From the IMG/VR virus record IMGVR_UViG_3300043436_004623, positions 17,298 to 81,297 of that record: a DNA stretch of 64,000 nt. One strand, written 5' to 3'. The position numbers were made by a program, and so were the translations under genes. Positions 25,143 to 59,246 of this stretch are shown here, piece after piece; position 1 is the first letter of the stretch, and the number at the start of each line of letters is the position of its first letter. Under the pieces are notes generated by a model. That model made no database searches. It saw nothing but the letters and a program-made list of their open reading frames with translations, and had not been told where the DNA came from. Source of the DNA: a virus (lineage: Duplodnaviria; Caudoviricetes).

Positions 25143-25168
25143 ATTTTCATTATTTTTTACACTTTATT

Positions 25169-27205
25169 TTAATTTGATTCCCAATTTATGGATAAGTTAT
25201 TCCAAATAGTATCGAAATCTTGATAATAATTACCCAATGTATTAATTACCCGCCTCATTAAAAATCCAGCATCGCTTCTAATTGTACAATCAAACGAAGC
25301 ATTAAAAGTCATCACATCATTCAATGGCATTGAATAATTAAAATTACTTAATCTACAATTGTTAAATTTATATGAACCTGTTATATAATTTTTAGTATTT
25401 ATACAATTTATTGTAAAAGCGTAAATTTGTTGATTAGATAAAATTCCACTGATAAATCCATCATCTACCCCAGAAACTAATACAGACATATCGATTTTTG
25501 CATTAATTGGATAATTTAATTTTCGATCATATACATAATCACTGCCTAATCCATATAAATCGTTTCTAGATAAATCTATGTCTATTGATAGAGATTGTAA
25601 TAGTGGTTTATTATAAGGCTCTAATTTAATGCCGCCAACCTGTAAATCATCAAGAATAAATTCACTATGCATCGGGGAAGTTACTGGAACATTGAATTCA
25701 GTTTTTCCCTCTGAATTATCTGTAACAAACCCAGATGCAAGAGTAAAATAAGTATCAGCTAAATTTAAAATTCCTGGATTTCTTATTGATGGAGTGTCGA
25801 TTTGATTTTTAGTTTCTAATATTCCATATTCAATTATATAACCATTAGTTGAAGATGCATTTGCTAAATCGTTCCATTTATAAGAATTAGCGCCGTGTAT
25901 ATTTCCAAGTCTAGATGCATAATTTTCTGCTCCGCCAGCATTATTTGGTTCTCCTGCATTCCAATTAGTATATCCATCGTTAAGAAGTGTGCCATCTATC
26001 CACCTCCAAGTTCCCTCTACTCCAGTATCTGTTGCTCCAATCCATAATGATGATTGAGTTTGAGTTGGTACTTTATTATTTTTTTCTTCTGTATTTAATA
26101 TTGCCAATCTTCCACCCCTTGACTCTGCGTCTGTTTTAGCCCCGCTCCATGTAAAACTCCCAGCGACTATTTCAAATTTTTCAGAATCAACGATAGTATC
26201 TATTTTCATATTAGAACAAGCAAAAGTTGTGCTAACTGATGGGATTTGACCTATTTGAAAATTAAGCGAATAATTTGTTAGATAAGAATCTCCAAAAGAA
26301 AAAATACTAAAACCACTAAAATCAATATTTAATGGATCAATTCTTTTTACTTCATCAAAACCTTCTTTTAAATCTCTATTATCAACCACTAAATAAAAAT
26401 TATTTCTTTTTAAGTTAAAATTAGAAAGAGCATTTTCATAAATATCACCACTTCCATTAAAACCCAACAATAGTTCATTATTCAAATATGGAGAATGTAA
26501 ATAATCTAAAGTTAAATTAACTTTTGGCGCTTGAAAAACCTCATTTACAGCATAATCATCAGACCCAATTTGTTTTAATTTTAAATGATCATTTGCTACT
26601 CCAAAATTACAATTTTGAGTGAGTGAAAATAATCTTAATTCATCAATATTTTCAGTTACCGTAACTGCGGCAGTTGTTGTTTTTATATAGTTTGTTGAGT
26701 AAGAACCTGCTTCTAGTTGTGCTCCATATACATAAAGAGACTCTGGTGTGGCAAATGTCGCATTTGCACCAATATACACTCTTGTTTGAGATACACTCGA
26801 TGGATATGTTGCAGTAACAGAAACTCTTTGCCATGTATTTGTTGTTGTAAAAGTAGTATGACCAATTGAATTAGAGCCGCCGTTATTATATAAATTAATT
26901 GTTAATGTTGCTGGGGATGCTGCTGCTTTAACCCATACGCTAAATGTATAAGTAGTATTTGCAAGACCAGCAAATTGTTGAGAAATATTTGAATTTGAGG
27001 TTGTTGCTGAAAGCAAAGTGGCGTTAGATTTGCCATCTGGAGACAACCCGCCAGGAGTTGGCGTGACTGAACCTTTTGACCAAATTGATTGAGTAAAATC
27101 TTCACTATAAGTTAAAATATTAGTTCTCTGTCTAGTTTTTGATGTTGATAATGGATTTCCAATACCAACAAATGCGGAATTACTTTTTAATATTTGTTTT
27201 GGCAT
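25169..27205 (-). CDS. Tail-tube-fold paralog with inserted carbohydrate-binding-like module and C-type lectin domain
   Basis: Shares YLTNYS...IGQIPSVS and QSLSI...R..L..LGS..RKL.YPINA with the major tail protein; lectin WIGATD...EGTWRW...WNAGEPNN...WND at about 25825-26165. Confidence 0.8.
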   Translation of the reverse strand: MPKQILKSNSAFVGIGNPLSTSKTRQRTNILTYSEDFTQSIWSKGSVTPTPGGLSPDGKSNATLLSATTSNSNISQQFAGLANTTYTFSVWVKAAASPATLTINLYNNGGSNSIGHTTFTTTNTWQRVSVTATYPSSVSQTRVYIGANATFATPESLYVYGAQLEAGSYSTNYIKTTTAAVTVTENIDELRLFSLTQNCNFGVANDHLKLKQIGSDDYAVNEVFQAPKVNLTLDYLHSPYLNNELLLGFNGSGDIYENALSNFNLKRNNFYLVVDNRDLKEGFDEVKRIDPLNIDFSGFSIFSFGDSYLTNYSLNFQIGQIPSVSTTFACSNMKIDTIVDSEKFEIVAGSFTWSGAKTDAESRGGRLAILNTEEKNNKVPTQTQSSLWIGATDTGVEGTWRWIDGTLLNDGYTNWNAGEPNNAGGAENYASRLGNIHGANSYKWNDLANASSTNGYIIEYGILETKNQIDTPSIRNPGILNLADTYFTLASGFVTDNSEGKTEFNVPVTSPMHSEFILDDLQVGGIKLEPYNKPLLQSLSIDIDLSRNDLYGLGSDYVYDRKLNYPINAKIDMSVLVSGVDDGFISGILSNQQIYAFTINCINTKNYITGSYKFNNCRLSNFNYSMPLNDVMTFNASFDCTIRSDAGFLMRRVINTLGNYYQDFDTIWNNLSINWESN

Positions 27206-27209
27206 GGTA

Positions 27210-29348
27210 TCAATCTTTAGGTATTACACCCAATGGGTCTTCAATTAATTGCACTTCAATATCATGTGAATCCTCAAACTTCCAAGTGTGATTCCAAGAC
27301 GGTGCGTAAAAAACTTTCGGTTTATTGTAAACAGAATCCATATTTACTCTAAATCTTCTATAACCACCTTTATTTTCTAAAAAATGCAAGATCGCCCTTG
27401 CTTTTTGTGTTGTTATGTTAGAAAATTTATATGTGAAATCAGTTGTTGCTATATTTTTTTTAGTTTTTATTCTTTGGCTAAATGAATTTTTAAAATTAAT
27501 TTTTTCAACTTTTAAATCGACAGAATTCTGCATTGCTAGATCAGGCTCAAAAAAGAAATCTTGTCTCCATGGTGATATAGAATCTCCTGGCTCTGTATCA
27601 ATACCTTCTTTTGAATTATGATTGTAACCACAATAATAAAAACTATTTAATCTATTTTGCCTCTTTGGAGATCCTTCTGTTTTGACATAATCTAATAAAT
27701 CCCCATTTTGTACTTGCGCACCCCAAATATACATAAAACCATCATTAGGTGGAATATTATAGTCCCAATTCCCCGAATAATCTGGAGCATTATCTAATAA
27801 TACAAAAACTGGAACATAATGATCGTTTTTAATTAGAACTGTTATAGAACATCTAAACCACCCGTTTGCATATGGAGTTATTTGACCCACAACACCCTCC
27901 CCCTGACGAGACATTGTTTGATTTTGTAAATTAAACGAACAATAATGAAAAGATCTTGGATTAATTGTTTGGTCTGTTGTTGCTGTTTTCATGAACTCCA
28001 AACCTATCATAAATTTATATTTTGGAGAAGCGGCATCAGCGCGAACAAAAATTGAAAAAGTCATTTTTTCTGAAAATTTTGAAGTTCTTTCAAAAAAATT
28101 ACTATAGTTAAACCCCGCACCCAAACCTTTGCCTGGATAAAACCCGTGCCAACGATTTGATGCAGCGTTTATTCTGTAGCACGAATCTTGACCAAATGGA
28201 TTTAATACCAATCTCGTGTGTATTAAATTTATATTTGCCAACTCCCAATATTTTCGTTCTGAAAAATTTTCACTATATCTTAAGAGATTGGATTTATTAC
28301 TTCGACTTTCGGAATACAATATATCATATTTATTATAATTTACATTTTTTCTCCAATATTTTTCATCATAATTTACAAAACAAGAATTATACCAATTTAA
28401 AATTGATGACGCTTGATCAACATCTAAAGACAACGCAACCTCATAATGATTTTTATTAATAAAATTAATTGCATATTGCGTACAAAAACCATCTATTGAT
28501 CTATAAATATTAGATGGATCTTTAAAAGAAAAATCATAAACACCTTTTTTATTTTCTATAAAATTTACAAGCTGTTGAGCTTCTAATTCATTTAAATCAA
28601 ATTTTAAATCAAATTTTGCTATTAAACTATTAATAGATAAGGGAATCATATTGATATAATTATCATGAGTGTCATATTTATTAACATTAGAAGAAAAAAA
28701 TACTTTAGATCCATATGTTGGTTTATATATTAAACTTGATATTGGATTTGTAACAATAACATTACTATCTCTATTATAAAAAATTAACGAATCTCCTCCA
28801 GTTTGCTCATATTCACCTGGTTCACTAGATAAATTAGTAACTTCTTCAACTTGAGCGCCCCAAACCCACATTGATCCATTATTACCATCACCATATCCCC
28901 CCATATGGTAATTATTTAAAACTAAAGTATTTGTTGGTGTTTTTTTAGTATTCCACCAAACCCTCATCCAACCATTATCGTATTCTTTATAATTAGCTTG
29001 AAATATAGTTCCAACTTCACCAGCTTGAGCATATTGCCACGTAAAAATTTTTGTTTTAAGATTAAAAATCCCCAATCTATGTTGAGTATTCTCGCCACCA
29101 ATTATAAATGGAAGTAATCTAGGCTCTGGGTTATCGCTTACTGGTTTTACAAAAATAGATCTACAGTATATTTTATCTGTAACAAAAGTAATTGGATTTA
29201 ATGGGGTATCAAATGTAGTACTCTTAACACTAGCTGGAGAAAAGAATCTGGTTGCTTCTTTAACTCCATTTGGTGCAATTGCATCATTTTCTGTTTTTAC
29301 AGATTTACCCCCCAAATTAAAATTTATACTATTTTTTACAAAATTCAT
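27210..29348 (-). CDS. Minor (distal) tail protein with duplicated lambda gpM-like segments and two inserted carbohydrate-binding-like modules
   Basis: Repeats EAQQLVNFIENKKGVYDF and KARAILHFLENKGGYRRF; modules ending WVWGAQVE and YIWGAQVQ. Confidence 0.65.
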   Translation of the reverse strand: MNFVKNSINFNLGGKSVKTENDAIAPNGVKEATRFFSPASVKSTTFDTPLNPITFVTDKIYCRSIFVKPVSDNPEPRLLPFIIGGENTQHRLGIFNLKTKIFTWQYAQAGEVGTIFQANYKEYDNGWMRVWWNTKKTPTNTLVLNNYHMGGYGDGNNGSMWVWGAQVEEVTNLSSEPGEYEQTGGDSLIFYNRDSNVIVTNPISSLIYKPTYGSKVFFSSNVNKYDTHDNYINMIPLSINSLIAKFDLKFDLNELEAQQLVNFIENKKGVYDFSFKDPSNIYRSIDGFCTQYAINFINKNHYEVALSLDVDQASSILNWYNSCFVNYDEKYWRKNVNYNKYDILYSESRSNKSNLLRYSENFSERKYWELANINLIHTRLVLNPFGQDSCYRINAASNRWHGFYPGKGLGAGFNYSNFFERTSKFSEKMTFSIFVRADAASPKYKFMIGLEFMKTATTDQTINPRSFHYCSFNLQNQTMSRQGEGVVGQITPYANGWFRCSITVLIKNDHYVPVFVLLDNAPDYSGNWDYNIPPNDGFMYIWGAQVQNGDLLDYVKTEGSPKRQNRLNSFYYCGYNHNSKEGIDTEPGDSISPWRQDFFFEPDLAMQNSVDLKVEKINFKNSFSQRIKTKKNIATTDFTYKFSNITTQKARAILHFLENKGGYRRFRVNMDSVYNKPKVFYAPSWNHTWKFEDSHDIEVQLIEDPLGVIPKD

Positions 29349-30138: not shown

Positions 30139-33100
30139 TTAATATAACAACCCTCCAACTCTTTGCTCTTGTTGAATAACTTTAACTACTTGTTCTTTAA
30201 TTTGCTGTGCAAATTTTGTTAATGCCTCATTAGCACTTGTTGATGTATCTGATTCTTTTGTAGAATTACCAGCACTGTCAACATTAATTGTAATCGAAGC
30301 TAATGAACCAGAAGTAATTTTATCAATTAACTCATCAAGTTTTGAAATAATTCTATCATTAAGTTCTTCTGTTTTTTCTTCGGTGGGAAGAGAACCTGCA
30401 CCAGCATTTAATGACTGTAAATTACCAGCACCAATATTTTGAGATGCAGCGCGATTCATTATAAATTCACCGCCAGAAAGCATTGTTGGAACAGTATCTA
30501 TTCCACTTGTTTGTGGGATTGATCCACCAGTAGCTCTTTTAAAGAAATTATCGAACCAGCTTGTCTTTTGTGAAACTTCTGGTATATTAGATGTAACATT
30601 ATTAACAGAACCCGATGGTTTGTATGAATAATTTGAACTTAAATATTTAGCAAACTCTTTATTTTCTGATCCTGAACTTTGTTTAAAAGCCTCTGCTAAA
30701 GCTTCTCCGCTTCCAATTTGAGAAAGCTTATAAGTTGATGATGCACCTTTAAAATCGCCAGTTAAAAATTGCCCAGCAGATGAAAAATAATTTTTTAATC
30801 CACCAACATTTACAGCTGACCCATCTGCTCCAGTGATTGTTCCACCACTCCATATGCCACTTAATTTATTTCCTGCAGCTTTGTAACCACTTGCAGCTGA
30901 TTTAGCAACACCAGACGCTACAGACGTAACAGCTGCTGTTGCCATGCCAGTCCAGAAACTTTTCCACATAGCTTTCTTTTCTTCTTCTGCAGCTTTTTCT
31001 ATTGCTTCTATTTGTTCTAATCTATCTTGTTCTTGTTGGTATTGAGAAGAGTATAAATCAAATGCTTGAGATTTGACACCCTTTTCAGCACCAAGAAGAC
31101 CGTCTGTTCTTGATCTTCCGTAATTTGTTAATCTATAACTTTCAGATTCTAAATCTACTGAAGCGAAATTATTGCCAGAAACCATTCTATCATATAAACC
31201 GCTGCTATAAGCTTGTGTGGCGTAAGATAATAAATTTTCTTTTCCTTTAATTGTTGCATATGTTTGTGTACCTGGCGCATAAAAACTTCCACCAGCTCCT
31301 ACCTGAGATTTAAAATCTTGGAAGTCTTTATTATCATCTATTGTTTTTTGATAAAAATTTGGATCGTAAGATCTTTCATCCACTAAATTTTGCGCTCTTA
31401 AATAATCATCATCTGATCTATTTGATCCATATCTTCCTCCCGAAACAGTTACCGCTCCTCCTGATGCATATTTTTGTATAGATCCATTGTTAAGAGCATT
31501 TAAAAATTCTTGTCCATATTTTTGAACAGCTTTTTTCTTAACAACATATTCCCCACCCATTAGCATAGCTGGGACATCATCTTTATTCCCAGAACCACCA
31601 TTAATCATTCCACCAGATGCATATTTTTTAACCTCTCCGCCTTGAGAAAATCCTGAGAAAATACTTGATGTAAATGTATTTGCAAGATTTTTTATAGCCA
31701 TGCTTTGAATTTCTTGAACAAAGCTTGATGCGGCTGAAAGCAACGCATCCTCTAAACTCTTAGCCCCAGTAACAGCATCTTGTATACCTTGTGATAAATT
31801 ATTGGAAAATGAAGTTGGTATTGCTTGCCCTAATTCATATTGAAAATTAGAAATATCCTTATTTATATTTGTTACAGCATCAGCCCAACCCTTTGAGAAA
31901 GTTTGAGGTTGCATTGCTTTTAAAGCTGCTATATCCTCTAATCTTTTTGCTTCTTTTTTTGCAGCCTCATCTACACCTAATTTTTTAAATCCTTCAGCTG
32001 CTTGTCTAATTGATGTTGCAAACTTTGTAATTTCTTGCGCTGGAGCATCTGCACCTAAAAATTCTTTCGCGGCTTTTTCAGCAGCTTCTCCTATTTTACT
32101 TATATCTAAAGCTGCAATTTTTACTGCTTCTGAATATGCTTTTTCTGATAAATCAAATTGTTTAGCAGCTCCCTGTTTAGTTTGCTGAGTCATTGTCGCT
32201 GGTATTGGTAAACCAGCACCTCGAAAAGCATAATTATAATAATCTCCTAGTTGTGTTCCAGATTCTCTTTTACTTCTGGCGGCAGCTAATGAAGCTTTAT
32301 CCACATTTGATGATTCAATATGCCACGGTTCATACTTACCTCCTCCTTGCCCCATCATTGGTCTATAAAATCCATGTTTTTGCAACAAGCCTAATCTTGC
32401 TGCTTTATCCATTTGATCAGAGCTTGCATCTATAGCTAAACCAAAACCATGCATTGATGTTCCTGGTGTAGCCGCTAAATTTGGTTTTCTTCTTTTAACA
32501 TCTACTTGTGATGCAAATGATCTATAACCATCTGTGACCTGAATTTTCTCACCAGTCTGTAATTCATAATCAGCCGCCATTGCTTCAAAATCTTTTCTAA
32601 ATCTTGAATTAAGACGAGCCATATCAGCACCCATATTAACTATACTAGAATTGGCTGCTTTTGAAATGCTAGAAATATTAGGTAATGGAGTAAATGTAAA
32701 AGGATTTTGTTGTGAACCAGATGGTTGCCCAGGAATTCCAGGCGTTAGAGCTGCAGATGGTTGTAATTGTTGCATTTTCTGCGCTATATTTTCTGGTAAT
32801 TTTTGCAATTCTTGTATAGCTATTTCTGTAGTGCTTTTTAAGTTATCTAAAGCTGTTGTCGCACTAGCCAACTTAAGAGAATTTTCATCTACTTTTAAAC
32901 TTCTTGTTAATTCGGATTTAATTTCAAGAGCTGTTTTTTCACGTTCAGCAGCCATCTCTAAATCAAAATATTTTTGATTGATTTGATCAAGACCTTTCTT
33001 GAAGTCTTCTGCCGTAGTGCTTAATGATGTTCTTTCATAAACAGATGTTTCAAGTTCTTTTCTAGCTTGATTGACTGATTGTCCACTTGAAATTGTACCA

Positions 33101-36100
33101 GCTCTAAAGTCTAACGCCGAAGCTTTACTTTCTAATTTGTAATTTATTCCTTCAACTATTGCAGCTCTATCTTCTTCATTTTGTTTTGTTTTTACAGATA
33201 TATCATAGAGCTTATTTCTTCTTGATTCTTCTTGATCTAAAAGATTTAAAATATTCTTTTCTCCCTGGGTAAACTGAAGAATAGCTGTAGTCATTAATTT
33301 AATATATTCTTCATTATTTTTATACTCTTCCCCTAATTCAGTAGATCTTGTTATTAAATTTGATAATTCTGTATTATTACCTTTTAATGCTTGTGATATT
33401 GCTGCTGCTGCCCCTGGTGTTTTGTATATGTTATTTACAAATTCTTTAGACTTATTTACAGCTTCTTCTATTTGCTTCTTATCTGTAATAGCTCCAAATT
33501 GAAGACCTCCTTTGCTAATTTCAGAGAGTGATTCATCTAACTTATCAGCAATTTGTGATTGAGCTTCTAATTCTGCAGTAATTCTTGCTTGTGTATTTTC
33601 TTGTTCTGCTAATTTTTTAGCTCTTTGTGTTTGTGAAAGTGTTAAATCAGAAGAAATTGCTAAAATTCTTTCTTGATTATTTACTTCGGCTTGATTTAAT
33701 GCGCCTTTTTCTTGAAATTTTCTTACATTTAAGAGTTCTTGCGCTCTAATTAATTTTAAAGTTTCTTGGACCTGTGAGGAGATTGATTCTTTAGCTGTTT
33801 GAGCAGCATCTTTTTCAGCTTTATCTTTTTGATTTATTAAATCAACAATTAACTCTAGTGCCTTTACTTGAGGTTCTTCTTCTGTTATCCCAACGGCAGA
33901 TAGACCATCAGTAAGTTTTTTACGATATTGTAATAAATAATCTGTATTACCCTTTGTTGATTCATCACCAGTACCAGTAAGAAAAGTTTTTAAGAGTTCG
34001 TCACTCAAACCAATAAGGGTTTGACCCATGCCTTCTCCTGGTTTTAAATCAAATTTATTAAGAAAATCTTCTGGTTTGAATTTTGCAGCAATTTTAATCA
34101 ACCCTTCAATTTCTTGACTAATTTTATTTACTTCGTCCGCAGTAACTTTACTTCCAGATTTTGATGCCTCTCGCACCATATTCCACATTTTACCATATGA
34201 AACTCCAACAGCCAGCGCTTGATCAATTGTTTGGTTGAAAGATTCTTCTAATACATCGCTTACTCCTTCAAATTCAGCTAATTTTTCTACCTCTTGACCA
34301 CGGTAAATTTGTCCAGTTTTTATTTTTCTAGACCCAGAAAGAAGAGCTTCCCTACGTTGTTCTATTCTTTCTTTTTGTGCTGGATTGAAATTACTTAAAT
34401 TGATAGCCGCTTTAGAAGCTGCTTCAGAAACTCTATACATTGCTTCTGAAGCTTTATTAATAGCTGGATTAGTTGAATCCATATAAGAAGCAAATTGTTT
34501 AAATGCTTCAAATGCACCAGCAGCTATAGCACCATAAATACCTACCTGACCTAACACTTTAGATGCCATACTCCCTTCTTTAGCTAAACCTGATAGACCT
34601 TGACCAACTAATGCGACTGTTGAAGCTGCTGATGCAATAGAACCAACAGCATTAGCAAATTTACCAACTCCACTTGTAGCATCACTAGTCGCGCCAGTGA
34701 GTAAAGTTAATCCAGTTTGAACAAGAAAAATAACACCTAATAAATCTCTTTTTGGTTTTTCTATATCGGCGCTACTAGTAGTTGTTGTAGGCGTATTTCT
34801 TGGTACTCCAGATGAAGTTCCAGATGCGCCAATCATTGTTCCTGGTCCAGAGTTTACATAATTAGGAACAAACCCTCCAGCTGCACCATACAACATTGGA
34901 TTAGCGCCTTCTTTTCTGGCACGACTAATTCCCTGCATACCGCCAGCTGGTTCATCACGGCGATTAGCAACCATTAATCCCATTGGATTCATGGAGTTCT
35001 TTAATGATGAATTTTGATCTACATAAATTTGCGAAGCTGGAACACCAGCGGACATTTCGCGGCCAATAGCCTCTTTAAGTGGATCTGCAAAGTTAGGAAT
35101 AAAGCCTTTAGCGCCATTAACCAAATTAAAATTACGAGATTTTGATTTAACATAACCCATAAAATCAAACTGATTTAATGGCGCATAAGTTGTTCCTTTT
35201 AATTGTTTTTTACTTCTTAAATCCCCTTCTTCTGCGACCGTTCTTCCAGCTCTTCTAGATAAGATATCAAGATTTTTTGCATAAAGATAAGATACTTTAC
35301 CGCCAGAAGCATTTACTGCTGAAATTATAGCTTCTAAATTTTTAGATATGCCGCCTCCTTTTGCACGAGCAGCTCCAGAAAGAATATCAATTTCTGATGC
35401 ACTAGCTACATCGCTAACACCAGAAAGAAATTTACCCATTTTTCCAGCTAATGTCGATTTGCCTGATCCTGCTGGACCAATAATAAGATTCTTTTTAACT
35501 TGAGAAGCAAGAACTGCTTTTAAGGTAGCCCCTTTGTCTGGAGCAATCCTATCGGAATCATAAATGTATTTTGCAAAGTTAGGAATATAACCTCTACTTG
35601 CTTTTATAGTAGCTTTATTAATCGCTTCAGCTACACCTATACTTTTTGATAATTTATTAGCAAAAAGTGGAGAATTTAAAATTTTCTCAGACATGCTTTT
35701 AACAGCATATTTACCTTTATTAATTTTAAAATCTGCTAATCCATTATTTGGAATCGAATTTGGACCAAATAATTTAATAATATTATCTCGCGCATCCCCC
35801 CTAGCGTTAACATCAAAATCCCCACCAATATTTTCAATATTTTTATCATTATCTATTGATGCGGCTCTTATGCCAGTAGTAACAGCTGCGTCAAAAATAC
35901 CACCAAAAGCACCCATCACAGAACCAATAAAACCTTTAACTTTATCAACCTCTTCTAATGTTTCTGGCTCTATAGGATTTTTACTATCTAAAGAAGAAAC
36001 TATTTTTCTTGCATAAGATAAGGCTGTTTTATTGGCGAGATTTTTAATTGTATCTTCATTAAATTTTCTTTCAAAATCATTTCTAATCGACTGTTTTCCA

Positions 36101-38325
36101 TTAGCTTGTAATCCAAATGATTCAAATTTAAATTCAGCATTTTTTCCGCTGCCAAATATATTCTTTTTAGTATATATTGCACTTAAACCGCTTTGATTTG
36201 GTGTTAAAATAGTTGGTAAATCATCGCCTAATATAGAAGCAACATCAATAACTTTTTTTTGTTTGTCAGTAACTACTAAAGCACGATCAAATTGAGATTT
36301 ACTAATTCTATATTGTGCATTATTGTAAGTAACAAATCCATCTTTCGCCGCTTTTGACGCTTCTTCAAAACTGCCCCAGTTAAAATCTCTATACCCTTGT
36401 TGCGGCAATTCTTTTAATTTTGCAAAATTAGGAATAAATCCTCCAGCAGCACCAATCTTTTTAGCACCAGCTGGAAGACCCATTGATCTAACCATATCTC
36501 TATTAAAGATAGCTGAACCACCTCCTGCAAAATTAGGAATAATATATTCACCAGTATGAGCGACCATCGTTCCTTTTTTGCCACCACCAAATGCAAAATT
36601 TGGTATAACTACTGGTTTATCTCCAGCTTTTGCTCCACCAACGCCACGGTTAATATCACGAGATTCTTGAGAAACTGCTGGCATATAACCACCAGCCGCC
36701 TGAGGAACCCTCAATCCTTGACCACCAGTTGATCTGACTCCTTGTTGATATAACGATCCAGCTAATGATCCAGCTGTAGCAGACATTCTACGCATTACAG
36801 CTTCTTGCTGGACAATAGCGTCAGTCATTAACTTGAGTTGGGCGGCGCGATTTCCTTCTAAAGCGAAAAGTTGTCTTTGTAAAGTTAAATTACTACCTAA
36901 AGCAGCAGCAATTGCTTTTTCAACACTTGCAATTTCTTTTGCAGATTGACCAATTTTAAAGAAACTTTTTAAACTCTCAATACCAAAACCAATTAAATCT
37001 TTGGAAAGTTTTGCAATAATTGCTCCAAATAATGCTAAACCAGGACCAGCTAGAACATTTCCAATTCCTTTTGCTAACCCTTGAACAAAAGTACCTAACG
37101 CGCTTTCCTCTCCAAGAATTTTTTGTATATCCTCTAAAACATTATTAAAGAAACTTAATAAACCTTTTAAACTATCTGTAATACCAATAGCCCCAAGAGT
37201 TGCCCCAAGTTGTTGTGCGCTTAAATTGACTTTATTAATTAAAGAAGCTAGTGTTTCATTTAATGCTGCATTTTTTTGATATGCCTCATTTGTTGCGTCA
37301 GCTGATAATTTAACTATATCATTATATTTAGATTGTTCACTTGATAAATCTTTAACAGCGGCTAATAAATTTGATAATTGATAAACGCCACCAAGTTTTT
37401 TAGCGATATCTGCTTGTTCTAGTTGACTTAAATTATTAAACTCTGCACCTAAGTTTTGTAAAATTCTTGTAGCGGGTAAAACCTTACCTTCTAAATCGGT
37501 AACTTGAATACCTAAATTTGATAAATCTTGTAAAGCTCCAGTATCTTGTATACGAGCGAAAATTGTTTTAAATGCGTTACCAATAACAGCACCACCGCGA
37601 GCAGTTCTTTCTTGAACTGTTGTAATAATACCAACTAACTCATCAAATGAAACACCAGCCTGATCAGCGACAGATGCAGATCTTTTAAGACCTTCAATTA
37701 AGTCTCTTTCTGAAACTGAATATTGTTGAGAAACGACAACTAGCTTATTTAAAATTTGAGATGTGGTAATTCCTGTTTCTTTAAACGAGTTGAATGCCGC
37801 CGTTAAACCTTCAACAGATTGTTGAGCATCTAAACCAGAAAGTCTTGAAAGAATAAGTGCGTCATTAATTCTTTTTAAAGTGTCTTCTGTGTTTAAACCT
37901 TGTCTAGCAAGTTCTAACGCACCTTTAGCAACAGTATCAAAAGTTTGACCAGTAGTTTTAGCTACATCAAAAAGTTTATTACCAAAGTCTTGTAACGCAT
38001 CTCCGCTTCTATTTAAAACTGTATTAATTTCTACAAGAGATTTCTCAACCTCAATTGTATTTCTGACTAAAGCGCCAAAAGCTTTACTTACGCCATTAAT
38101 AATACCAACTGAAGCGCCGAAAGCAAACACGCGAGCATTTGCAGCTTCCATTGATTTTGTAAATTCATCAGCTTGACCAGTAATTCTACCAAGAGGTTGA
38201 GATAAAGCATTAATTTGGCGACTATTCGTTCCAAGATTAATCTGAGTATTACGCCCAGCATTTCTCATGGCCTGTTGAATACTCGCTTCTAATCCTGTTT
38301 GGGTTACTGGTATCTGTAGTGGCAT
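30139..38325 (-). CDS. Tape measure protein (TP901-like N-terminus) with inserted domains, including an M15 peptidase
   Basis: 2728 aa; ELARQGL..EDTLKRI, A.QAGVSFDELVGIIT, GNAFKTIFARI; YRSF...SMHGFGLAID...EPWHIE at about 32300-32620; two GG..D.VP.ML.GGE motifs near the C-terminus. Confidence 0.92.
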   Translation of the reverse strand: MPLQIPVTQTGLEASIQQAMRNAGRNTQINLGTNSRQINALSQPLGRITGQADEFTKSMEAANARVFAFGASVGIINGVSKAFGALVRNTIEVEKSLVEINTVLNRSGDALQDFGNKLFDVAKTTGQTFDTVAKGALELARQGLNTEDTLKRINDALILSRLSGLDAQQSVEGLTAAFNSFKETGITTSQILNKLVVVSQQYSVSERDLIEGLKRSASVADQAGVSFDELVGIITTVQERTARGGAVIGNAFKTIFARIQDTGALQDLSNLGIQVTDLEGKVLPATRILQNLGAEFNNLSQLEQADIAKKLGGVYQLSNLLAAVKDLSSEQSKYNDIVKLSADATNEAYQKNAALNETLASLINKVNLSAQQLGATLGAIGITDSLKGLLSFFNNVLEDIQKILGEESALGTFVQGLAKGIGNVLAGPGLALFGAIIAKLSKDLIGFGIESLKSFFKIGQSAKEIASVEKAIAAALGSNLTLQRQLFALEGNRAAQLKLMTDAIVQQEAVMRRMSATAGSLAGSLYQQGVRSTGGQGLRVPQAAGGYMPAVSQESRDINRGVGGAKAGDKPVVIPNFAFGGGKKGTMVAHTGEYIIPNFAGGGSAIFNRDMVRSMGLPAGAKKIGAAGGFIPNFAKLKELPQQGYRDFNWGSFEEASKAAKDGFVTYNNAQYRISKSQFDRALVVTDKQKKVIDVASILGDDLPTILTPNQSGLSAIYTKKNIFGSGKNAEFKFESFGLQANGKQSIRNDFERKFNEDTIKNLANKTALSYARKIVSSLDSKNPIEPETLEEVDKVKGFIGSVMGAFGGIFDAAVTTGIRAASIDNDKNIENIGGDFDVNARGDARDNIIKLFGPNSIPNNGLADFKINKGKYAVKSMSEKILNSPLFANKLSKSIGVAEAINKATIKASRGYIPNFAKYIYDSDRIAPDKGATLKAVLASQVKKNLIIGPAGSGKSTLAGKMGKFLSGVSDVASASEIDILSGAARAKGGGISKNLEAIISAVNASGGKVSYLYAKNLDILSRRAGRTVAEEGDLRSKKQLKGTTYAPLNQFDFMGYVKSKSRNFNLVNGAKGFIPNFADPLKEAIGREMSAGVPASQIYVDQNSSLKNSMNPMGLMVANRRDEPAGGMQGISRARKEGANPMLYGAAGGFVPNYVNSGPGTMIGASGTSSGVPRNTPTTTTSSADIEKPKRDLLGVIFLVQTGLTLLTGATSDATSGVGKFANAVGSIASAASTVALVGQGLSGLAKEGSMASKVLGQVGIYGAIAAGAFEAFKQFASYMDSTNPAINKASEAMYRVSEAASKAAINLSNFNPAQKERIEQRREALLSGSRKIKTGQIYRGQEVEKLAEFEGVSDVLEESFNQTIDQALAVGVSYGKMWNMVREASKSGSKVTADEVNKISQEIEGLIKIAAKFKPEDFLNKFDLKPGEGMGQTLIGLSDELLKTFLTGTGDESTKGNTDYLLQYRKKLTDGLSAVGITEEEPQVKALELIVDLINQKDKAEKDAAQTAKESISSQVQETLKLIRAQELLNVRKFQEKGALNQAEVNNQERILAISSDLTLSQTQRAKKLAEQENTQARITAELEAQSQIADKLDESLSEISKGGLQFGAITDKKQIEEAVNKSKEFVNNIYKTPGAAAAISQALKGNNTELSNLITRSTELGEEYKNNEEYIKLMTTAILQFTQGEKNILNLLDQEESRRNKLYDISVKTKQNEEDRAAIVEGINYKLESKASALDFRAGTISSGQSVNQARKELETSVYERTSLSTTAEDFKKGLDQINQKYFDLEMAAEREKTALEIKSELTRSLKVDENSLKLASATTALDNLKSTTEIAIQELQKLPENIAQKMQQLQPSAALTPGIPGQPSGSQQNPFTFTPLPNISSISKAANSSIVNMGADMARLNSRFRKDFEAMAADYELQTGEKIQVTDGYRSFASQVDVKRRKPNLAATPGTSMHGFGLAIDASSDQMDKAARLGLLQKHGFYRPMMGQGGGKYEPWHIESSNVDKASLAAARSKRESGTQLGDYYNYAFRGAGLPIPATMTQQTKQGAAKQFDLSEKAYSEAVKIAALDISKIGEAAEKAAKEFLGADAPAQEITKFATSIRQAAEGFKKLGVDEAAKKEAKRLEDIAALKAMQPQTFSKGWADAVTNINKDISNFQYELGQAIPTSFSNNLSQGIQDAVTGAKSLEDALLSAASSFVQEIQSMAIKNLANTFTSSIFSGFSQGGEVKKYASGGMINGGSGNKDDVPAMLMGGEYVVKKKAVQKYGQEFLNALNNGSIQKYASGGAVTVSGGRYGSNRSDDDYLRAQNLVDERSYDPNFYQKTIDDNKDFQDFKSQVGAGGSFYAPGTQTYATIKGKENLLSYATQAYSSGLYDRMVSGNNFASVDLESESYRLTNYGRSRTDGLLGAEKGVKSQAFDLYSSQYQQEQDRLEQIEAIEKAAEEEKKAMWKSFWTGMATAAVTSVASGVAKSAASGYKAAGNKLSGIWSGGTITGADGSAVNVGGLKNYFSSAGQFLTGDFKGASSTYKLSQIGSGEALAEAFKQSSGSENKEFAKYLSSNYSYKPSGSVNNVTSNIPEVSQKTSWFDNFFKRATGGSIPQTSGIDTVPTMLSGGEFIMNRAASQNIGAGNLQSLNAGAGSLPTEEKTEELNDRIISKLDELIDKITSGSLASITINVDSAGNSTKESDTSTSANEALTKFAQQIKEQVVKVIQQEQRVGGLLY

Positions 38326-38362: not shown

Positions 38363-39349
38363 CTATTCTCCCATTAATTTAATCATATCATCCATGTTTA
38401 AAGTGCCGCCACTATTTTTAATATGATCAGACAATGAAATAGTTGGTGTGTCTGGTATTACTTCTTGCAAGTCTTCTTTTGTTGCACCAAAAAGAGTTGT
38501 TGCTCCAGAGTCTTTATCTTTTATTTTTGATAAAACTTTATTGTTTCCACCGCTGCGTTTACTTTCTGCAAATCTTAATAAAGCAGATGGGTCTTTTTTA
38601 ATTCCATTTGGAATGTCATCATTGTATTGGAATATGTTATAAAATACTCTAGCATATAAAGCTAGTTTTAGTTGATAAACAGAAAGGTGGATAATTGGTT
38701 TGCCATAAAATGATGAAACATCTTCTGTTTGAGATAAATACATGTTAAAGAAATCCCTCAAAACACTTTCTTGAATAAGTTCTTCACTAAGTCTACTAGA
38801 ACAATTTGAATTTTGTTTTACTAAAGATGTAATATCTTTATCATCTAATTCACCAAATTCTTCTTCAGTAAATAAGTGTTTTTTTAAATCTTGATCTTTA
38901 AATAAAATATATCTAATAAACTCTTCATTAGATCTAGAACTTGCAAAATCTTCAGCAGTTGTGCCAACAACTTCTTTTCTTTTAATTTTAAAAATATTTA
39001 ATTCTTTATGTCTTTCGGCAATTGTTTCTTGTAAAGCTTTTTTTTGTGATGGTAAAATTGTATTCAATAAAGAATCTTTTAAATTATCCAACTCCACTTC
39101 AAGAGATGAAATTTTAAAATCATCATCTTTAGACCAAAGACCATCTTTTTTTAAATTATTTAAAGCTTCTTCTTCAGTAGGTATACCTTTATTAATTGCA
39201 AGATTTTTATATTTATTATAATACTTATGTATATACCTTTGATCTCTAATAGAAAAATGTTTTAGGTATACTGGTTCACCTTTAAAGTAAAACTCAGTAT
39301 ACCCATCAAATATTTCACCAACAATGGCTATATATTCTTCTTCACTCAC
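38363..39349 (-). CDS. Probable tail assembly chaperone
   Basis: Immediately upstream of the tape measure gene; helical, charged sequence. Confidence 0.5.
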   Translation of the reverse strand: MSEEEYIAIVGEIFDGYTEFYFKGEPVYLKHFSIRDQRYIHKYYNKYKNLAINKGIPTEEEALNNLKKDGLWSKDDDFKISSLEVELDNLKDSLLNTILPSQKKALQETIAERHKELNIFKIKRKEVVGTTAEDFASSRSNEEFIRYILFKDQDLKKHLFTEEEFGELDDKDITSLVKQNSNCSSRLSEELIQESVLRDFFNMYLSQTEDVSSFYGKPIIHLSVYQLKLALYARVFYNIFQYNDDIPNGIKKDPSALLRFAESKRSGGNNKVLSKIKDKDSGATTLFGATKEDLQEVIPDTPTISLSDHIKNSGGTLNMDDMIKLMGE

Positions 39350-40101
39350 ACTTCATTTTTCTCAATTCTTTCCATTAAGCCGTCAAAGGATTCTTTGTCA
39401 GAAGCTTGGTTAAAGAACCAGAAAGCTAAAATAGTTGCAGCCTTTTTAGTAATTAAAAAGTAAAGACTATCATCAGATTCTTCTCTTTTATAATATTCTT
39501 CAATTCTTTGATCAAAATCTCCAGTTCCAAAAAATGGTTTTGGATTCTCATCTTCTTCTTCTTGAATATAAGTAAGCATAATTACATACCATAAAATCAA
39601 ACGATTTTGAGCCTTTACATCAGCGGTATGATCAAAAAGTGATTGATAGTTAGATTCAAATTCAACAATCTGACGGCGGGTTGAAGCAAGCTCCTTAGTA
39701 ATTTCTTCTACTCTTTCTTTTTGTTTATCAGACTTTTCTTGAATAATCTCAAGACGAGAATATTCATTTTGAAGATCAAAAATCTTTTTATAAGAATCAA
39801 CTAATGAACCAGCGTCATCTTCACTCATCAAACCACCAGTATCACTATACTTCTTAGCAAGCATGGCTTTTGTTAAAATTCCCTTCTTAACGCAGCGACT
39901 CATTTCAACACTGAATTCTAACTCAGCTTCTTCTAATTCTCTGCGAGATGGCCTTTTTAAACGAATTGAAACAGGTGTTTTTTCTTTTACTTTTTTCTTA
40001 GTAATGATTTCTTCACCTGTTTTTTTATCCTTTTTAGTAGATTCAATTGTTTTCTCTACTTCCTTATCGACTGTGAAACTATATAATTCTTTGAATTCCA
40101 T
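39346..40101 (-). CDS. Probable tail assembly chaperone
   Basis: Synteny; LKRPSRRELEEAE motif; GTGA overlap with the next gene. Confidence 0.5.
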   Translation of the reverse strand: MEFKELYSFTVDKEVEKTIESTKKDKKTGEEIITKKKVKEKTPVSIRLKRPSRRELEEAELEFSVEMSRCVKKGILTKAMLAKKYSDTGGLMSEDDAGSLVDSYKKIFDLQNEYSRLEIIQEKSDKQKERVEEITKELASTRRQIVEFESNYQSLFDHTADVKAQNRLILWYVIMLTYIQEEEDENPKPFFGTGDFDQRIEEYYKREESDDSLYFLITKKAATILAFWFFNQASDKESFDGLMERIEKNEV

Positions 40102-53400: not shown

Positions 53401-53559
53401 AGTAATTAATTCAGAAGAGAAAGATGGGTTTTCTTTTAAAAATTTATATAATAAAATTTTAGCTTTTCTTTCATCAATAAAACCGTTTGTATCAAGAATT
53501 TCTTGATTAATATTTTTAAATTTTTTATTTAATTTTTGATTGCCAGTTTCCCAACTCAT
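50488..53559 (-). CDS. terL: Terminase large subunit with intein
   Basis: LFPFQ, Walker A SRGMSKS, LRGFRF, Walker B IIDE, nuclease LAFDPS...DDFS...RKDSYS. Confidence 0.93.
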   Translation of the reverse strand: MSWETGNQKLNKKFKNINQEILDTNGFIDERKAKILLYKFLKENPSFSSELITGVSLFPFQHMAIKAMMETDYFLGIWCLEENEYVLSKNGFKKIKEIQIGDYVRSRNEINLVSDKKENPEEQGLDIKLQSGDSFKAKIGHKVLVYDDGKFVFKEIENLKIGDSIPIKIATEIWGDKDITEGSKVNRSPYLFYLLGYVLGDGWVNQDGIHYCSEHFEVQETCLKFLRDNDLKSYARQRTKNLSFYEYSIFNREIVSWLESIGWDRSLKSKDKVICDSILQCSRNELCALIGGLFDADGYASYLSTSSKVGLKNTSLQLLRQIKMILNNLGIISNLRKSGEHKGVSYYDLVISNDVNSLREFQNSIDFQVFHKKSNLEKIINRSKNKNYQNNLIPNFCEIIKKDGSKEKVTGKRGSWGKGFSQNNFDSLINISDNTRQIIDSIKNENVVFSPIKSIDNCLVKSIDITVENEECYVGSGFVHHNSRGMSKSFSTAIFAILDAILNQGVHIGIISKSFRQSKMIFRKIEEISRSPKAGFLSQCINRISKTNDEWVIEIGRSKITALPLGDGEKLRGFRFQRMIIDELLLMPEKILNEVILPFLSVVENPTERQKLYDLESTLIKQGKMSEEDRYRWPNNKIIGLSSASYKFEYLYKLYQQYESLILNNAEKDNAHRVIMHFSYDCAPDQLYDQNLINQAKATMSQSQFDREFGAVFTDDSSGYFKVSKMALCTIPDGEGQAVEVIGDPTAQYILAFDPSWSESDGSDDFSMQLIKINPEKRNGVVVHSYALSGTNLKKHIEYIHYLIAHFNIVSIVGDYNGGVQFINSCNESEIFKKAGIKLDMFDADFDNPQEYDKALRDARNQYNISTRKIVHLRKPSSAWIRYANESLQAAFDHKRIWFAGAAMDEAYNKQRLANIPIQTLKFSRHDDEKESGARQIDFIEQLKDNVELIKVQCALIQVNTSAQGTQSFDLPLNLKKQRGADKARKDSYSTLVLGNWMMQTYFDMINLQEQNVQATFTPMFIN
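52114..53325 (-). mobile_element. 404-aa intein with LAGLIDADG endonuclease in terL
   Basis: Begins CLEENEYVLS after W78 and ends FVHHN followed by Ser; internal LLGYVLGDG and LIGGLFDADG. Confidence 0.95.
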
Positions 53560-58534: not shown

Positions 58535-58820
58535 ACAAAAGTACTTACACTTTTTCAGTCTGGGATTTTTTTTTATGTTTGGTATTGGTGAATTTAGATA
58601 GACCGATAACGTTTTCGACAAATGGGGGAGGGGTACGTTGGTTTGGAGAGGGGAGATTGAGGAAAGTGTCCCCCCGCCCTTTCCCACGCAAACGACTCGC
58701 AGTTTTTTTGAGAAATGGGGGGAGGGTGTCAAGTGTTTTCTTTAGAATCTCGCAAAATTCTTTTCGAAAAAAAACGATTTTTTTTCTTGTGATATGGGGG
58801 GTATCTGGTAATGTTCTTAC

Positions 58821-58991: not shown

Positions 58992-59044
58992 AAATAAAAA
59001 ATCTTTTTCCTTGCTCTAACCTCAAAATCTGCTAACTTTCTCTC

Positions 59045-59203: not shown

Positions 59204-59246
59204 AAATTTTCCTTGCGTTCCCTCTCTCATCTGCTAACTTTCTCCC

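What the first reader, a model, noticed from the sequence alone, without database searches (positions are those of the whole stretch)
34858..36700. Repeat-delimited 'cargo bay' in the tape measure protein carrying nuclease-like and P-loop kinase-like domains
Seen: the motif IPNFA occurs five times (36592, 36526, 36421, 35572, 35086), usually as G(G/Y/F)xIPNFA, plus GGFVPNY (34858) and GGYMPA. Between copies 3 and 4 lies a ~280-aa globular insert with GGIFD...GGDFDV...LADFK followed by a helix, the spacing of a PD-(D/E)xK restriction-endonuclease-like core. Between copies 4 and 5 lies a ~155-aa insert with Walker A GPAGSGKST and an RRxGR lid-like motif (NMP/polynucleotide-kinase-like). Established: tape measure proteins are ejected into the host at infection and usually carry only cell-wall hydrolases. 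Inference: the repeats are swap points or proteolytic release sites for polymorphic effectors injected with the genome, a possibly undescribed anti-defence or host-takeover delivery system.
Basis: partly seen in the sequence, partly recalled or inferred. Interest (0 to 1): 0.82.

Follow-up and report, generated by a model that had tools for sequence, protein, structure and literature searches.

The report
Tape measure protein with swappable modules
The tail-length "ruler" protein of an uncultured aquatic phage carries two self-contained protein modules fenced by one short conserved peptide, and related phages exchange such modules exactly at that peptide; so the tail probably carries ready-made proteins into the host, though neither delivery nor cutting has been shown.

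Summary
All seven motif sites lie in one 2,728-aa tape measure protein (TMP, window 30139-38325, minus strand). Residues 545-1156 form a cassette array:
- an opening element with three motif copies;
- a 278-aa orphan module (K3);
- a 157-aa P-loop module (K2);
- a 72-aa closing element (K1).

Every joint is the peptide AAxG[FY][IV]PNFA.

Among 121 related TMPs I found 60 architectures and at least 53 module families. DNA similarity starts and stops at the motif: 46% of 1,610 HSP ends against 6% by chance. K2 was exchanged recently (dS 0.047, against 1.03 in the N-terminal domain). Both modules are under purifying selection.

New here: K2 also exists as free-standing ~150-aa genes that lack the motif and sit in arrays of small ORFs on other metagenomic contigs. 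The modules are therefore autonomous proteins.

- **Swap points:** strongly supported.
- **P-loop module:** supported. "Kinase" is only the leading guess.
- **PD-(D/E)xK nuclease:** the sequence pattern is conserved, but no fold match was found.
- **Proteolytic release and injection:** untested.

I found no published description. This scan has noted the same architecture on other genomes.

The parts
30139..38325 (-). Tape measure protein ORF, 2728 aa (P0001)
   Evidence: Pfam PhageMin_Tail scores 103.7 bits against a cut-off of 33.2. Eleven of the 14 PHROG hits are tape-measure families. Synteny in relatives is conserved: 95-, 251- and 323-aa genes upstream, and a ~267-aa gene plus a Phage_min_tail gene downstream.
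37387..37968 (-). TP901-type TMP core domain (aa 120-313)
   Evidence: Pfam PF10145, E 1.6e-29. It is the only part with relatives in cultured phages (~27% identity over aa 31-485).
36979..37068 (-). Hydrophobic segment upstream of the array (aa 420-449)
   Evidence: Kyte-Doolittle 19-aa window above 1.4. Its spacing to the first motif is fixed at about 143 aa in 115 relatives.
36421..36693 (-). Opening element of the array (aa 545-635): GGYMPA plus motif copies 1-3, spaced 22 and 35 aa (36592-36606, 36526-36540, 36421-36435)
   Evidence: It is conserved at 62-100% identity in most relatives with the same 22/35 spacing. It is 92% identical in DNA to L013, whereas the N-terminal domain is 70%.
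35587..36420 (-). Module K3 (aa 636-913), an orphan domain. Conserved residues: G808, F811, D812 (E in most relatives), D838, K867
   Evidence: Alignment A3: 25 sequences at 19-39% identity; the invariant columns are G182, F185, D212 and K241, and E186 is nearly invariant. AF2 model pLDDT 74 with mixed alpha/beta content. No fold or family match. Median dN/dS 0.22.
35572..35586 (-). Motif copy 4 (IPNFA, aa 914-918): the K3/K2 joint
   Evidence: DNA similarity to L013, L014 and L015 begins within a few codons of it.
35101..35571 (-). Module K2 (aa 919-1075), a compact P-loop NTPase. Walker A GPAGSGKST lies at 35452-35478. Invariant residues: D923, D925, K989, R1024, R1028, D1035, R1037
   Evidence: Alignments A2 and A5. 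AF2 model pLDDT 78. All the best structural neighbours are P-loop NTPases, Z up to 6.7. Median dN/dS 0.085. Free-standing ~150-aa homologues are 49% identical.
35086..35100 (-). Motif copy 5 (IPNFA, aa 1076-1080): the K2/K1 joint
   Evidence: In L014 and L015 the K2 and K1 HSPs overlap only in this motif, although the two modules are not adjacent there.
34870..35085 (-). Closing element K1 (aa 1081-1152). It is not predicted to be globular and is almost always the last unit of the array
   Evidence: K1 occurs in 117 of 121 relatives and is last in nearly all architectures. Alignment A4 has 21 invariant columns.
34858..34869 (-). Motif copy 6 (VPNY, aa 1153-1156): the end of the array
   Evidence: DNA similarity to L013, L014, L015 and L016 ends here, at gene nt 3469.
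34603..34746 (-). Hydrophobic, glycine-rich segments downstream of the array (aa 1194-1241)
   Evidence: In 96 of 115 relatives a hydrophobic window follows the array, and only 7 have one inside it.
32317..32616 (-). VanY-type peptidoglycan peptidase domain (aa 1904-2003). It lies outside the array and is not fenced by the motif
   Evidence: Pfam PF02557, 25.9 bits against a cut-off of 25. Relatives carry lysozyme, chitinase-like, SLT or NlpC/P60 domains instead.

Best explanation
Residues 545-1156 of this tape measure protein form a cassette array. An opening element and a closing element bracket autonomous protein modules that are strung in frame. Every joint is the peptide AAxG[FY][IV]PNFA.

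Shown:
- The modules fold on their own and are under purifying selection.
- Related phages add, drop, reorder and replace them exactly at the peptide.
- At least K2 moved recently between diverged phages.
- K2 also exists as a free-standing ~150-aa gene without the peptide.

Inferred:
- The array lies between two hydrophobic stretches of a protein that is expelled from the tail ahead of the DNA. The modules are therefore pre-made proteins carried into the cell to act at the very start of infection.
- Other phages obtain the same K2 activity from a gene in a small-ORF array that looks like an early region.
- The peptide is selected at the protein level and is predicted to be flexible. It most likely serves as a processing or docking site. 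Its shared coding sequence also gives in-frame joints for recombination.
- K2 binds a nucleotide and is most likely a small kinase-like enzyme.
- K3 has a three-residue acidic/lysine signature compatible with a metal-dependent nuclease, but its fold is unassigned.

My odds, step by step: array and swapping 0.95; modules are autonomous functional proteins 0.85; they are delivered as cargo 0.55; they are cut at the peptide 0.35.
For: Architecture:
- 121 TMPs give 60 architectures and at least 53 module families. K1 is almost always last.
- Array length ranges from 239 to 2012 aa and is not compensated by the rest of the protein.

Breakpoints:
- Against L013, DNA identity is 70% in the N-terminal domain, 92% in the opening element, undetectable in K3 and 95.6% in K2+K1. 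HSP ends fall at aa 635, 907 and 1156.
- Of 1,610 HSP ends in the array among 25 loci, 46% lie inside the 21-nt motif-coding interval, against 6% at random. The median distance to a motif is 1 nt against 101 nt.

Recent transfer:
- K2 dS is 0.047, against 1.03 for the N-terminal domain in the same pair.
- K2 and K3 of the same locus pairs have discordant dS.

Function is retained:
- Median dN/dS is 0.085 for K2 and 0.22 for K3.
- Walker A, D-x-D, K989, R1024, R1028 and D1035-x-R1037 are invariant across embedded and free-standing forms.

Autonomy:
- Free-standing proteins of 147-159 aa start one or two residues before the first strand of the module, end just after its last strand, and lack the motif.
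- One of them is 49% identical to the window's K2, E 2e-40.
- It sits among about 35 small ORFs, almost all on the same strand, on an 84-kb contig.

The peptide as a linker:
- pLDDT is below 50-57 at both ends of both models.
- The copies differ at synonymous sites.

Topology:
- Hydrophobic stretches flank the array, and only 7 of 115 relatives have one inside it.

Precedent:
- A virion RNA polymerase fused to the TMP of phage P23-45 acts on the entering DNA (PMC10770324).
Against: - There is no direct evidence that the modules leave the virion, enter the cytoplasm or are cut free.
- No protease was recognised in the TMP or in ten neighbouring ORFs.
- No module matches a known effector, toxin or anti-defence family. 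Pfam found nothing in P0027 and P0023, which together carry about 20 modules, or in ten further module families.
- K3 has no fold match, so its function is open.
- Three copies of a folded 17- to 30-kDa domain would not fit a tail-tube lumen of about 4 nm (general knowledge), so the packed state is unexplained.
- K2 is a narrow family: only 92 representatives in 1.84 billion proteins. This is unlike the widely shared domains of polymorphic toxins.
- The 'early gene' status of the free-standing copies is inferred from gene layout only.
Confidence: 0.6

Rival explanations
1. Structural or assembly role. The modules and the peptide serve tail building rather than the host. The peptide would dock the tail assembly chaperone, the tube or the terminator. 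The modules would act as spacers, plugs or cis-acting assembly factors, for example an NTP-dependent folding aid. Swapping would simply track co-evolving tail parts.
For: - The opening and closing elements and the peptide are far more conserved than the modules, as expected for contacts with conserved virion parts.
- No module belongs to a known effector family.
- The genes at the chaperone position (251 and 328 aa) are unusually large and also conserved.
- Most modules are confined to this TMP lineage.
Against: - The order and number of modules vary freely, with duplications and inversions of order. That is hard to reconcile with a fixed structural contact map.
- Array length varies eight-fold without compensation.
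- K2 exists as a free-standing gene far from any tail gene on the fetched stretch.
- The nucleotide-binding site of K2 is invariant.
Confidence: 0.2
2. K3 is a PD-(D/E)xK nuclease and K2 an NMP or polynucleotide kinase. Both are released by proteolysis at IPNFA and act as polymorphic anti-defence or takeover effectors.
For: - The conserved columns of K3 are exactly G..F(E/D), a D and a (D/E)xK lysine.
- The best structural neighbours of K2 are archaeal adenylate kinases (Z 6.7, 114 residues aligned) and Clostridium thermocellum polynucleotide kinase (Z 6.3, 115 aligned).
- Language-model neighbours of K2 are AAA_33 and Zeta_toxin clusters at 0.87, a lead only.
- The RR..R helix is invariant.
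- TMPs of T5 and lambda are cleaved during assembly (PMC10038345).
Against: - The K3 model matches no nuclease fold. Foldseek against PDB and BFVD gave nothing at E <= 0.001, and VIA gave a maximum Z of 4.5 on helices only. A predicted helix separates the D and DxK strands.
- For K2, GTPases tie with kinases within 1 Z unit, and Pfam/NCBIfam hits cover only the Walker A stretch.
- The T5 cut site SFVPR|AEGG shares only F-V-P..A with the motif. A profile of the opening element does not find pb2 (score 0.8, E 5 among 151 ORFs).
Confidence: 0.25
3. Selfish or neutral passengers. The modules are mobile inserts tolerated in a permissive loop of the TMP, as inteins or homing-endonuclease domains are elsewhere. 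They spread by recombination at the repeated motif and give the phage no benefit.
For: - Modules move horizontally between diverged phages.
- The same genome hosts an intein with a LAGLIDADG endonuclease in its terminase gene.
- One K3 pair has dN/dS 1.07.
Against: - Purifying selection is strong on K2 and moderate on K3.
- There are no intein splicing residues at the joints: modules begin with K/D and end with ...PNFA, and Pfam finds no Hint domain.
- The peptide itself is conserved at the protein level with differing codons.
- K2 is kept as an ordinary gene elsewhere.
Confidence: 0.08

Closest known systems
Thermus phage P23-45 gp96, a TMP fused to a virion RNA polymerase (PMC10770324)
   Same: A very long TMP whose N-terminal part carries a folded enzyme unrelated to cell-wall digestion. 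That enzyme is thought to enter with the DNA and act first. Here too the non-ruler part lies N-terminal to the hydrophobic, channel-forming part.
   Different: P23-45 has one fixed enzyme at the extreme N-terminus. It has no repeated junction peptide, no array and no exchange of modules among relatives. No sequence relation to K2 or K3 was found here.
Polyvalent proteins of phages and conjugative elements (Iyer et al. 2017, PMC5512222)
   Same: Many unrelated domains lie in one polypeptide in variable architectures. They are proposed to be delivered with the DNA and separated after synthesis.
   Different: That paper does not mention tape measure proteins. Its signature domains (MuF, zincin-like processing peptidases, ART, methylases) were not detected here. 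Here a single conserved peptide marks every joint.
Polymorphic toxin systems with a demarcating motif (CdiA VENN, Rhs PxxxxDPxGL; my own knowledge)
   Same: A short conserved peptide marks the point at which variable cargo is exchanged by recombination.
   Different: Those systems have one C-terminal toxin with an adjacent immunity gene. Here several internal modules lie in series, no immunity gene was looked for or seen, and no toxin family was recognised.
TMPs with embedded peptidoglycan hydrolases (mycobacteriophage TM4, PMC1796659; T5 pb2, PMC10038345)
   Same: These are enzyme domains inside a TMP. T5 pb2 is cut between its hydrophobic stretch and its enzyme domain.
   Different: Those enzymes act on the cell wall and lie C-terminal. 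This TMP has such a domain too (VanY, aa 1904-2003), but outside the array and without the motif. The T5 cut site is not significantly similar to the motif.
TMP-related reconfigurable effectors of actinobacterial contractile injection systems (Sle1; PMC13277306)
   Same: A TMP-like scaffold carries an exchangeable functional domain and is packed inside a tail-like particle.
   Different: Sle1 has a single C-terminal functional domain, in a contractile non-phage particle of Actinobacteria, with no junction peptide array. I read only the abstract.

Membership tests
Phage tail tape measure protein, TP901 type (Pfam PF10145 PhageMin_Tail) | Match to the family profile above its curated cut-off | tested here: met
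   103.7 bits against a cut-off of 33.2, aa 120-313. Eleven of the 14 PHROG hits are TMP families, down to E 4.6e-48.
Phage tail tape measure protein, TP901 type (Pfam PF10145 PhageMin_Tail) | Gene position between chaperone-position genes and distal or minor tail genes | tested here: met
   The downstream ORFs hit minor tail and tail PHROGs. Relatives have a Phage_min_tail gene two genes downstream and the same three upstream genes.
Phage tail tape measure protein, TP901 type (Pfam PF10145 PhageMin_Tail) | Sets tail length and is expelled at infection | not testable with these tools
   No cultured member exists. The nearest cultured phages share only aa 31-485 at about 27% identity.
P-loop NTPases | Walker A GxxxxGK[ST] on a strand-loop-helix within a parallel sheet | tested here: met
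   GPAGSGKST lies at aa 950-958. P, G, G and K are invariant in 24 embedded and 7 free-standing homologues. In the model it follows strand 35-41. All the best VIA neighbours are P-loop proteins.
P-loop kinases (adenylate kinase, polynucleotide kinase, AAA_33, Zeta toxin) | Profile membership beyond the Walker A stretch | tested here: not met
   Pfam and NCBIfam hits are all below the cut-offs and cover only about 15-35 residues around Walker A. A PDB profile search finds only P-loop stretches.
P-loop kinases (adenylate kinase, polynucleotide kinase, AAA_33, Zeta toxin) | Kinase-type fold with an Arg-bearing lid | tested here: inconclusive
   Neighbours: 1nks Z 6.7 (114 aligned, rmsd 4.9), 4gp7 Z 6.3, 6epi Z 5.5. 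GTPases score Z 5.7-6.6, a tie. R1024 and R1028 are invariant and R1025 nearly so, on a helix.
PD-(D/E)xK nuclease superfamily | Conserved acidic...D...(D/E)xK residues | tested here: met
   Columns G182, F185, D212 and K241 are invariant and E186 is nearly invariant in 25 homologues of 19-39% identity. In the window these are D812, D838 and D865-F-K867.
PD-(D/E)xK nuclease superfamily | Alpha-beta-beta-beta-alpha-beta core fold | tested here: inconclusive
   The AF2 model has pLDDT 74. Foldseek against PDB and BFVD finds nothing at E <= 0.001, and VIA gives at most Z 4.5 on a helical hairpin. A helix is predicted between the D and DxK strands.
PD-(D/E)xK nuclease superfamily | Profile match to any nuclease family | tested here: not met
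   No Pfam family is shared by more than 1 of the 25 members. PHROGs, NCBIfam and the PDB profile search give nothing relevant.
Polyvalent proteins (Iyer et al. 2017) | Several unrelated domains in one phage polypeptide with variable architectures | tested here: met
   60 architectures and at least 53 module families in 121 proteins.
Polyvalent proteins (Iyer et al. 2017) | Signature domains (MuF, processing metallopeptidase, ART and others) | tested here: not met
   Pfam finds none in P0001, P0027 or P0023, or in ten other module families.
Inteins | Splicing residues (N-terminal C/S, C-terminal HN followed by C/S/T) and a Hint domain | tested here: not met
   The joints read ...G[FY][IV]PNFA followed by K, D or G. 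No Hint or Intein_splicing hit occurs in the TMP, although that model does fire on the terminase ORF of the same window.

The most novel reading that the evidence does not exclude
A large, uncultured lineage of aquatic long-tailed phages uses its tape measure protein as a programmable carrier. Any small autonomous protein can be spliced in frame between copies of a universal junction peptide. It is then packed in the tail, expelled ahead of the DNA and released at the peptide. Phages would thus trade ready-made first-minute proteins as cassettes. The same proteins (K2 at least) serve in other phages as ordinary genes in small-ORF arrays that look like early regions.
Probability: 0.4. Interest if true: 0.85.

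Novelty: new variant of a known kind. Interest (0 to 1): 0.72.

Why it matters
Phage proteins that enter the cell with the DNA decide the first minute of infection, but few are known. Most of those few are head-packed proteins.

This array suggests a general and evolvable route through the tail. A ruler protein takes exchangeable passengers at a fixed junction, and more than a thousand natural variants are available to compare.

It also provides a clear case of recent domain exchange inside tape measure proteins. A systematic survey could not confirm such a case (PMC10684548).

The junction peptide could serve as a handle for loading chosen proteins into phage tails in laboratory phage-host systems. 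The orphan modules, beginning with a compact P-loop protein that is also kept as a free-standing gene, are candidates for new host-takeover or counter-defence activities.

Tried and rejected
- **Family searches on the inserts.** Pfam, PHROGs and NCBIfam gave only sub-threshold Walker A hits for K2 and nothing for K3 or K1.
- **Other modules.** Pfam found nothing on ten other module families or on two long, module-rich TMPs.
- **PDB sequence profiles.** Only P-loop stretches matched.
- **Fold searches.** Foldseek against PDB for both models and against BFVD for K3 gave nothing at E <= 0.001. VIA-align gave generic P-loop matches for K2 and none for K3.
- **ESM Atlas.** K3 scored 0.76, which is uninformative. 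K2 scored 0.87 to AAA_33/Zeta_toxin clusters, a lead only.
- **Word-indexed search for free-standing K2 or K3.** It found only gene fragments on ~1-kb contigs. The full HMM scan later found true free-standing K2 proteins.
- **K1 as a homotrimer (complex prediction).** No verdict, score 0.00, and the fold itself was uncertain. This counts neither for nor against.
- **T5 cleavage-site likeness**, a lead from an earlier scan note. T5 pb2 is cut after R1127. That site, SFVPR|AEGG, shares only F-V-P..A with the motif, and a profile of the opening element does not detect pb2. I dropped it as evidence for cleavage.
- **Intein reading.** Rejected, because the splicing residues and a Hint domain are absent.
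- **Cultured phages.** No match to aa 540-1170.
- **Prokaryote species genomes.** No K2 was found. K1 occurred on a single MAG contig.
- **Metagenome contig scan.** It added only six close loci.
- **Records not held.** The window's own assembly and the record behind L054 are not held. I therefore could not check whether the phage with free-standing K2 also has a motif-bearing TMP.
- **An early misreading, corrected.** I first read K3 as 'replaced by unrelated sequence' in P0006-P0012. jackhmmer shows those segments are divergent K3 members.
Full report
**1. What is there**

The finding lies inside a single ORF, window 30139-38325 on the minus strand, encoding 2,728 aa. It is a tape measure protein (TMP). 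Pfam PhageMin_Tail scores 103.7 bits against a cut-off of 33.2 at aa 120-313. A VanY-type peptidase lies at aa 1904-2003. Eleven of the 14 PHROG hits are tape-measure families.

The downstream ORFs hit tail and minor-tail PHROGs. Relatives keep the same gene order: 95-, 251- and 323-aa genes upstream, and a ~267-aa gene plus a Phage_min_tail gene downstream.

The phage is uncultured and very divergent. Cultured phages share only aa 31-485 at about 27% identity and nothing beyond. Most head genes have no Pfam or PHROG hit.

**2.

- IPNFA occurs at aa 574, 596, 631, 914 and 1076, VPNY at 1153 and GGYMPA at 545.
- In all six frames of the window, [IV]PN[FY] occurs only twice elsewhere: once in another long ORF and once in a 12-codon frame.
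- Over 785 instances in 121 related proteins the consensus is A-A-x-G-[FY]-[IV]-P-N-F-A.
- The copies in this gene use different synonymous codons. The peptide is therefore selected as a peptide, not only as DNA.

**3. Anatomy of the array (aa 545-1156)**

| Unit | Residues | Description |
|---|---|---|
| Opening element | 545-635 | Three motif copies, spaced 22 and 35 aa |
| K3 | 636-913 | Orphan module |
| K2 | 919-1075 | P-loop module |
| K1 (closing element) | 1081-1152 | Ends in the sixth motif copy |

K1 and the opening element look related by eye. K1 is not predicted to be globular.

Hydrophobic stretches flank the array, at aa 420-449 and 1194-1241. In 115 relatives the upstream stretch sits a fixed ~143 aa before the first motif. 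Only 7 relatives have a hydrophobic window inside the array.

**4. Relatives swap modules at the motif**

A search with aa 540-1170 found 1,161 proteins at E <= 0.001 among the 8,000 candidates scored; almost all of the 120 best listed carry PhageMin_Tail or are annotated as TMPs.

I split 121 of them at the motif and clustered the pieces. This gave 60 architectures and at least 53 module families. K1 is almost always last. K2 and K3 occur in either order, modules are dropped or duplicated, and arrays reach 13 motifs. Array length ranges from 239 to 2012 aa.

The mosaic is sharp at the DNA level. Window against L013:

| Segment | DNA identity |
|---|---|
| N-terminal domain | 70% |
| Opening element | 92% |
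| K3 | no detectable similarity |
| K2 + K1 | 95.6% |

The HSPs end at aa 635, 907 and 1156, which are the motifs. In L014 and L015, K2 is 93% identical in DNA but sits before K3, and the K2 and K1 matches overlap only in the motif.

Among 25 loci, 46% of 1,610 HSP ends inside the array fall in the 21-nt motif-coding interval, against 6% for random positions. The median distance to a motif is 1 nt against 101 nt. The pairs are not independent, but the effect is large.

Synonymous divergence shows that this reflects transfer and not only constraint. For window against L013, dS is 1.03 in the N-terminal domain and 0.047 in K2. K2 and K3 of the same locus pairs give discordant dS.

A published survey of phage protein mosaicism could not confirm any genuine recent case in TMPs (PMC10684548).

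**5. What the modules are**

*K2*

- In 24 embedded homologues the invariant features are the Walker A motif, an RR..R helix, DLRS and NQ..F.
- The AF2 model (pLDDT 78) is a compact alpha/beta P-loop fold.
- Foldseek finds nothing at E <= 0.001.
- VIA-align gives only P-loop proteins. The best are an archaeal adenylate kinase (Z 6.7, 114 aligned), polynucleotide kinase (Z 6.3) and zeta toxin (Z 5.5), tied with GTPases at Z 5.7-6.6.
- Sequence profiles match only around Walker A.
- 'P-loop NTPase' is therefore secure. 'Kinase' is the leading guess.

*K3*

- The family is divergent (19-39% identity). Its invariant columns are G, F, D and K, and the acidic residue after the F is nearly invariant; together they form the pattern G..F(E/D) ... 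D ... (D/E)xK.
- That pattern fits a PD-(D/E)xK site.
- The model (pLDDT 74) matches no known fold in PDB or BFVD. No family profile matches either.

*Selection*

Both modules are under purifying selection. Median dN/dS is 0.085 for K2 and 0.22 for K3, with one K3 pair at 1.07. The motif residues at both ends of both models have low confidence. This fits a flexible linker rather than part of either fold.

**6. New here: K2 is an autonomous protein**

A full HMM scan of 1.84 billion representatives with the K2 profile found only 92 proteins at E <= 0.001. Most are TMPs, but several are 147-159 aa long and match profile positions ~10-163, that is, the module without its motif flanks.

Their sequences start with Met one or two residues before the first strand (Y-I-Y-D-S-D), end just after the last strand and lack the motif. 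Residues invariant across embedded and free-standing forms are D923, D925, Walker A, K989, R1024, R1028, D1035 and R1037.

One free-standing protein, P0130, is 49% identical to the window's K2 (E 2e-40). It sits on an 84-kb Tara Oceans scaffold among about 35 small ORFs, almost all on the same strand and none with a Pfam hit. Two other free-standing proteins lie in similar settings on short contigs.

That layout is typical of phage early or accessory regions. This is an inference from layout, not a measurement. I could not check whether those phages also have a motif-bearing TMP, because the record is not held.

**7. How it most likely works**

Shown:
- The array is motif-fenced.
- The modules are autonomous and under selection.
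- Exchange happens at the motif and at least one exchange was recent.

Inferred from established TMP biology (TMPs leave the tail ahead of the DNA and their hydrophobic parts enter the envelope; PMC10038345, PMC10770324):
- The modules lie in a soluble stretch between two hydrophobic segments.
- They lie N-terminal to the cell-wall enzyme.
- They are therefore placed to reach the cell interior just before the DNA, as proposed for the TMP-fused RNA polymerase of P23-45.

K2 is a free-standing gene in some phages and a TMP passenger in others. That fits a function wanted at the very start of infection.

The role of the peptide is open. I favour a processing or docking site. It also provides in-frame recombination joints. 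I found no protease. The likeness to the T5 pb2 cut site is too weak to count. How folded domains would be stowed in a narrow tube is unexplained.

**8. Comparison with what is known**

- **TMP-embedded enzymes** are the nearest kin: P23-45 vRNAP, and the peptidoglycan hydrolases of TM4 and T5.
- **Polyvalent proteins** are also close, but that paper does not mention TMPs and its signature domains are absent here.
- **Polymorphic toxins with demarcating motifs** work in a similar way but differ in layout.
- **TMP-like CIS effectors** such as Sle1 carry a single exchangeable domain.

Five full-text searches found no description of a junction-peptide array in a TMP.

This scan has noted the same architecture on other genomes. 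I used those notes as leads to papers and re-tested the claims here.

**9. Verdict**

The feature is real and widespread. It is not described in the literature I could search, and it is a new variant of a known kind. The enzyme labels are half-supported. Release and injection remain hypotheses.

Noticed in passing
window 50488-53559 (-): The 1023-aa ORF is a terminase large subunit interrupted by an intein with a LAGLIDADG homing endonuclease. Hits: Intein_splicing 43 bits, LAGLIDADG_3 63.7 bits, Terminase_6N 24.5 bits.
   Followed up: no
window 58800-64000: This stretch has 43-45% G+C and holds only small ORFs, whereas most of the rest of the window has 23-36% (one 2-kb bin reaches 40%). The small-ORF arrays that carry the free-standing K2 gene on other contigs have a similar G+C of 44-45%. 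No other ORF is shared.
   Followed up: partly
window 21063-29348 (-): Three consecutive large ORFs (712, 678 and 1359 aa) all hit the same tail-protein family, phrog_5939. They look like paralogous tail fibre or tip proteins.
   Followed up: no
window 31411-31647 and 30376-30528 (-), aa 2227-2305 and about 2600-2650 of the TMP: The TMP carries two copies of a C-terminal motif, D.VP.ML.GGE[YF][VI]...N.G. The first copy (aa 2227-2305) is matched by the function-unknown families phrog_35029 and phrog_13338. By eye the motif resembles the 'TGEYIIPNFA' unit of the opening element.
   Followed up: no
window 32317-32616 (-) and relatives P0003-P0100: The cell-wall enzyme in the C-terminal half is also exchangeable among relatives: VanY here; phage lysozyme PF00959, PF00182, SLT PF01464 or NlpC/P60 elsewhere. 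It is not fenced by the motif.
   Followed up: no
L052:6516-16252: A 64-kb contig binned into a Candidatus Neomarinimicrobiota MAG carries a distant TMP with at least 14 copies of G.[IV]PNF spread over more than 2,800 aa. It was the only hit to K1 among 185,579 prokaryote species genomes.
   Followed up: partly
L014:4987-5802 against L015:4987-5844: This K3 pair (84% aa identity) has dN/dS 1.07, while K2 of the same two loci has 0.15. The cause could be local relaxation or diversifying selection on K3.
   Followed up: no
window 38363-40101 (-): The two genes at the tail-chaperone position are large (251 and 328 aa), overlap by 4 nt and have no Pfam or PHROG hit. They are conserved in size and order in distant relatives.
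   Followed up: no
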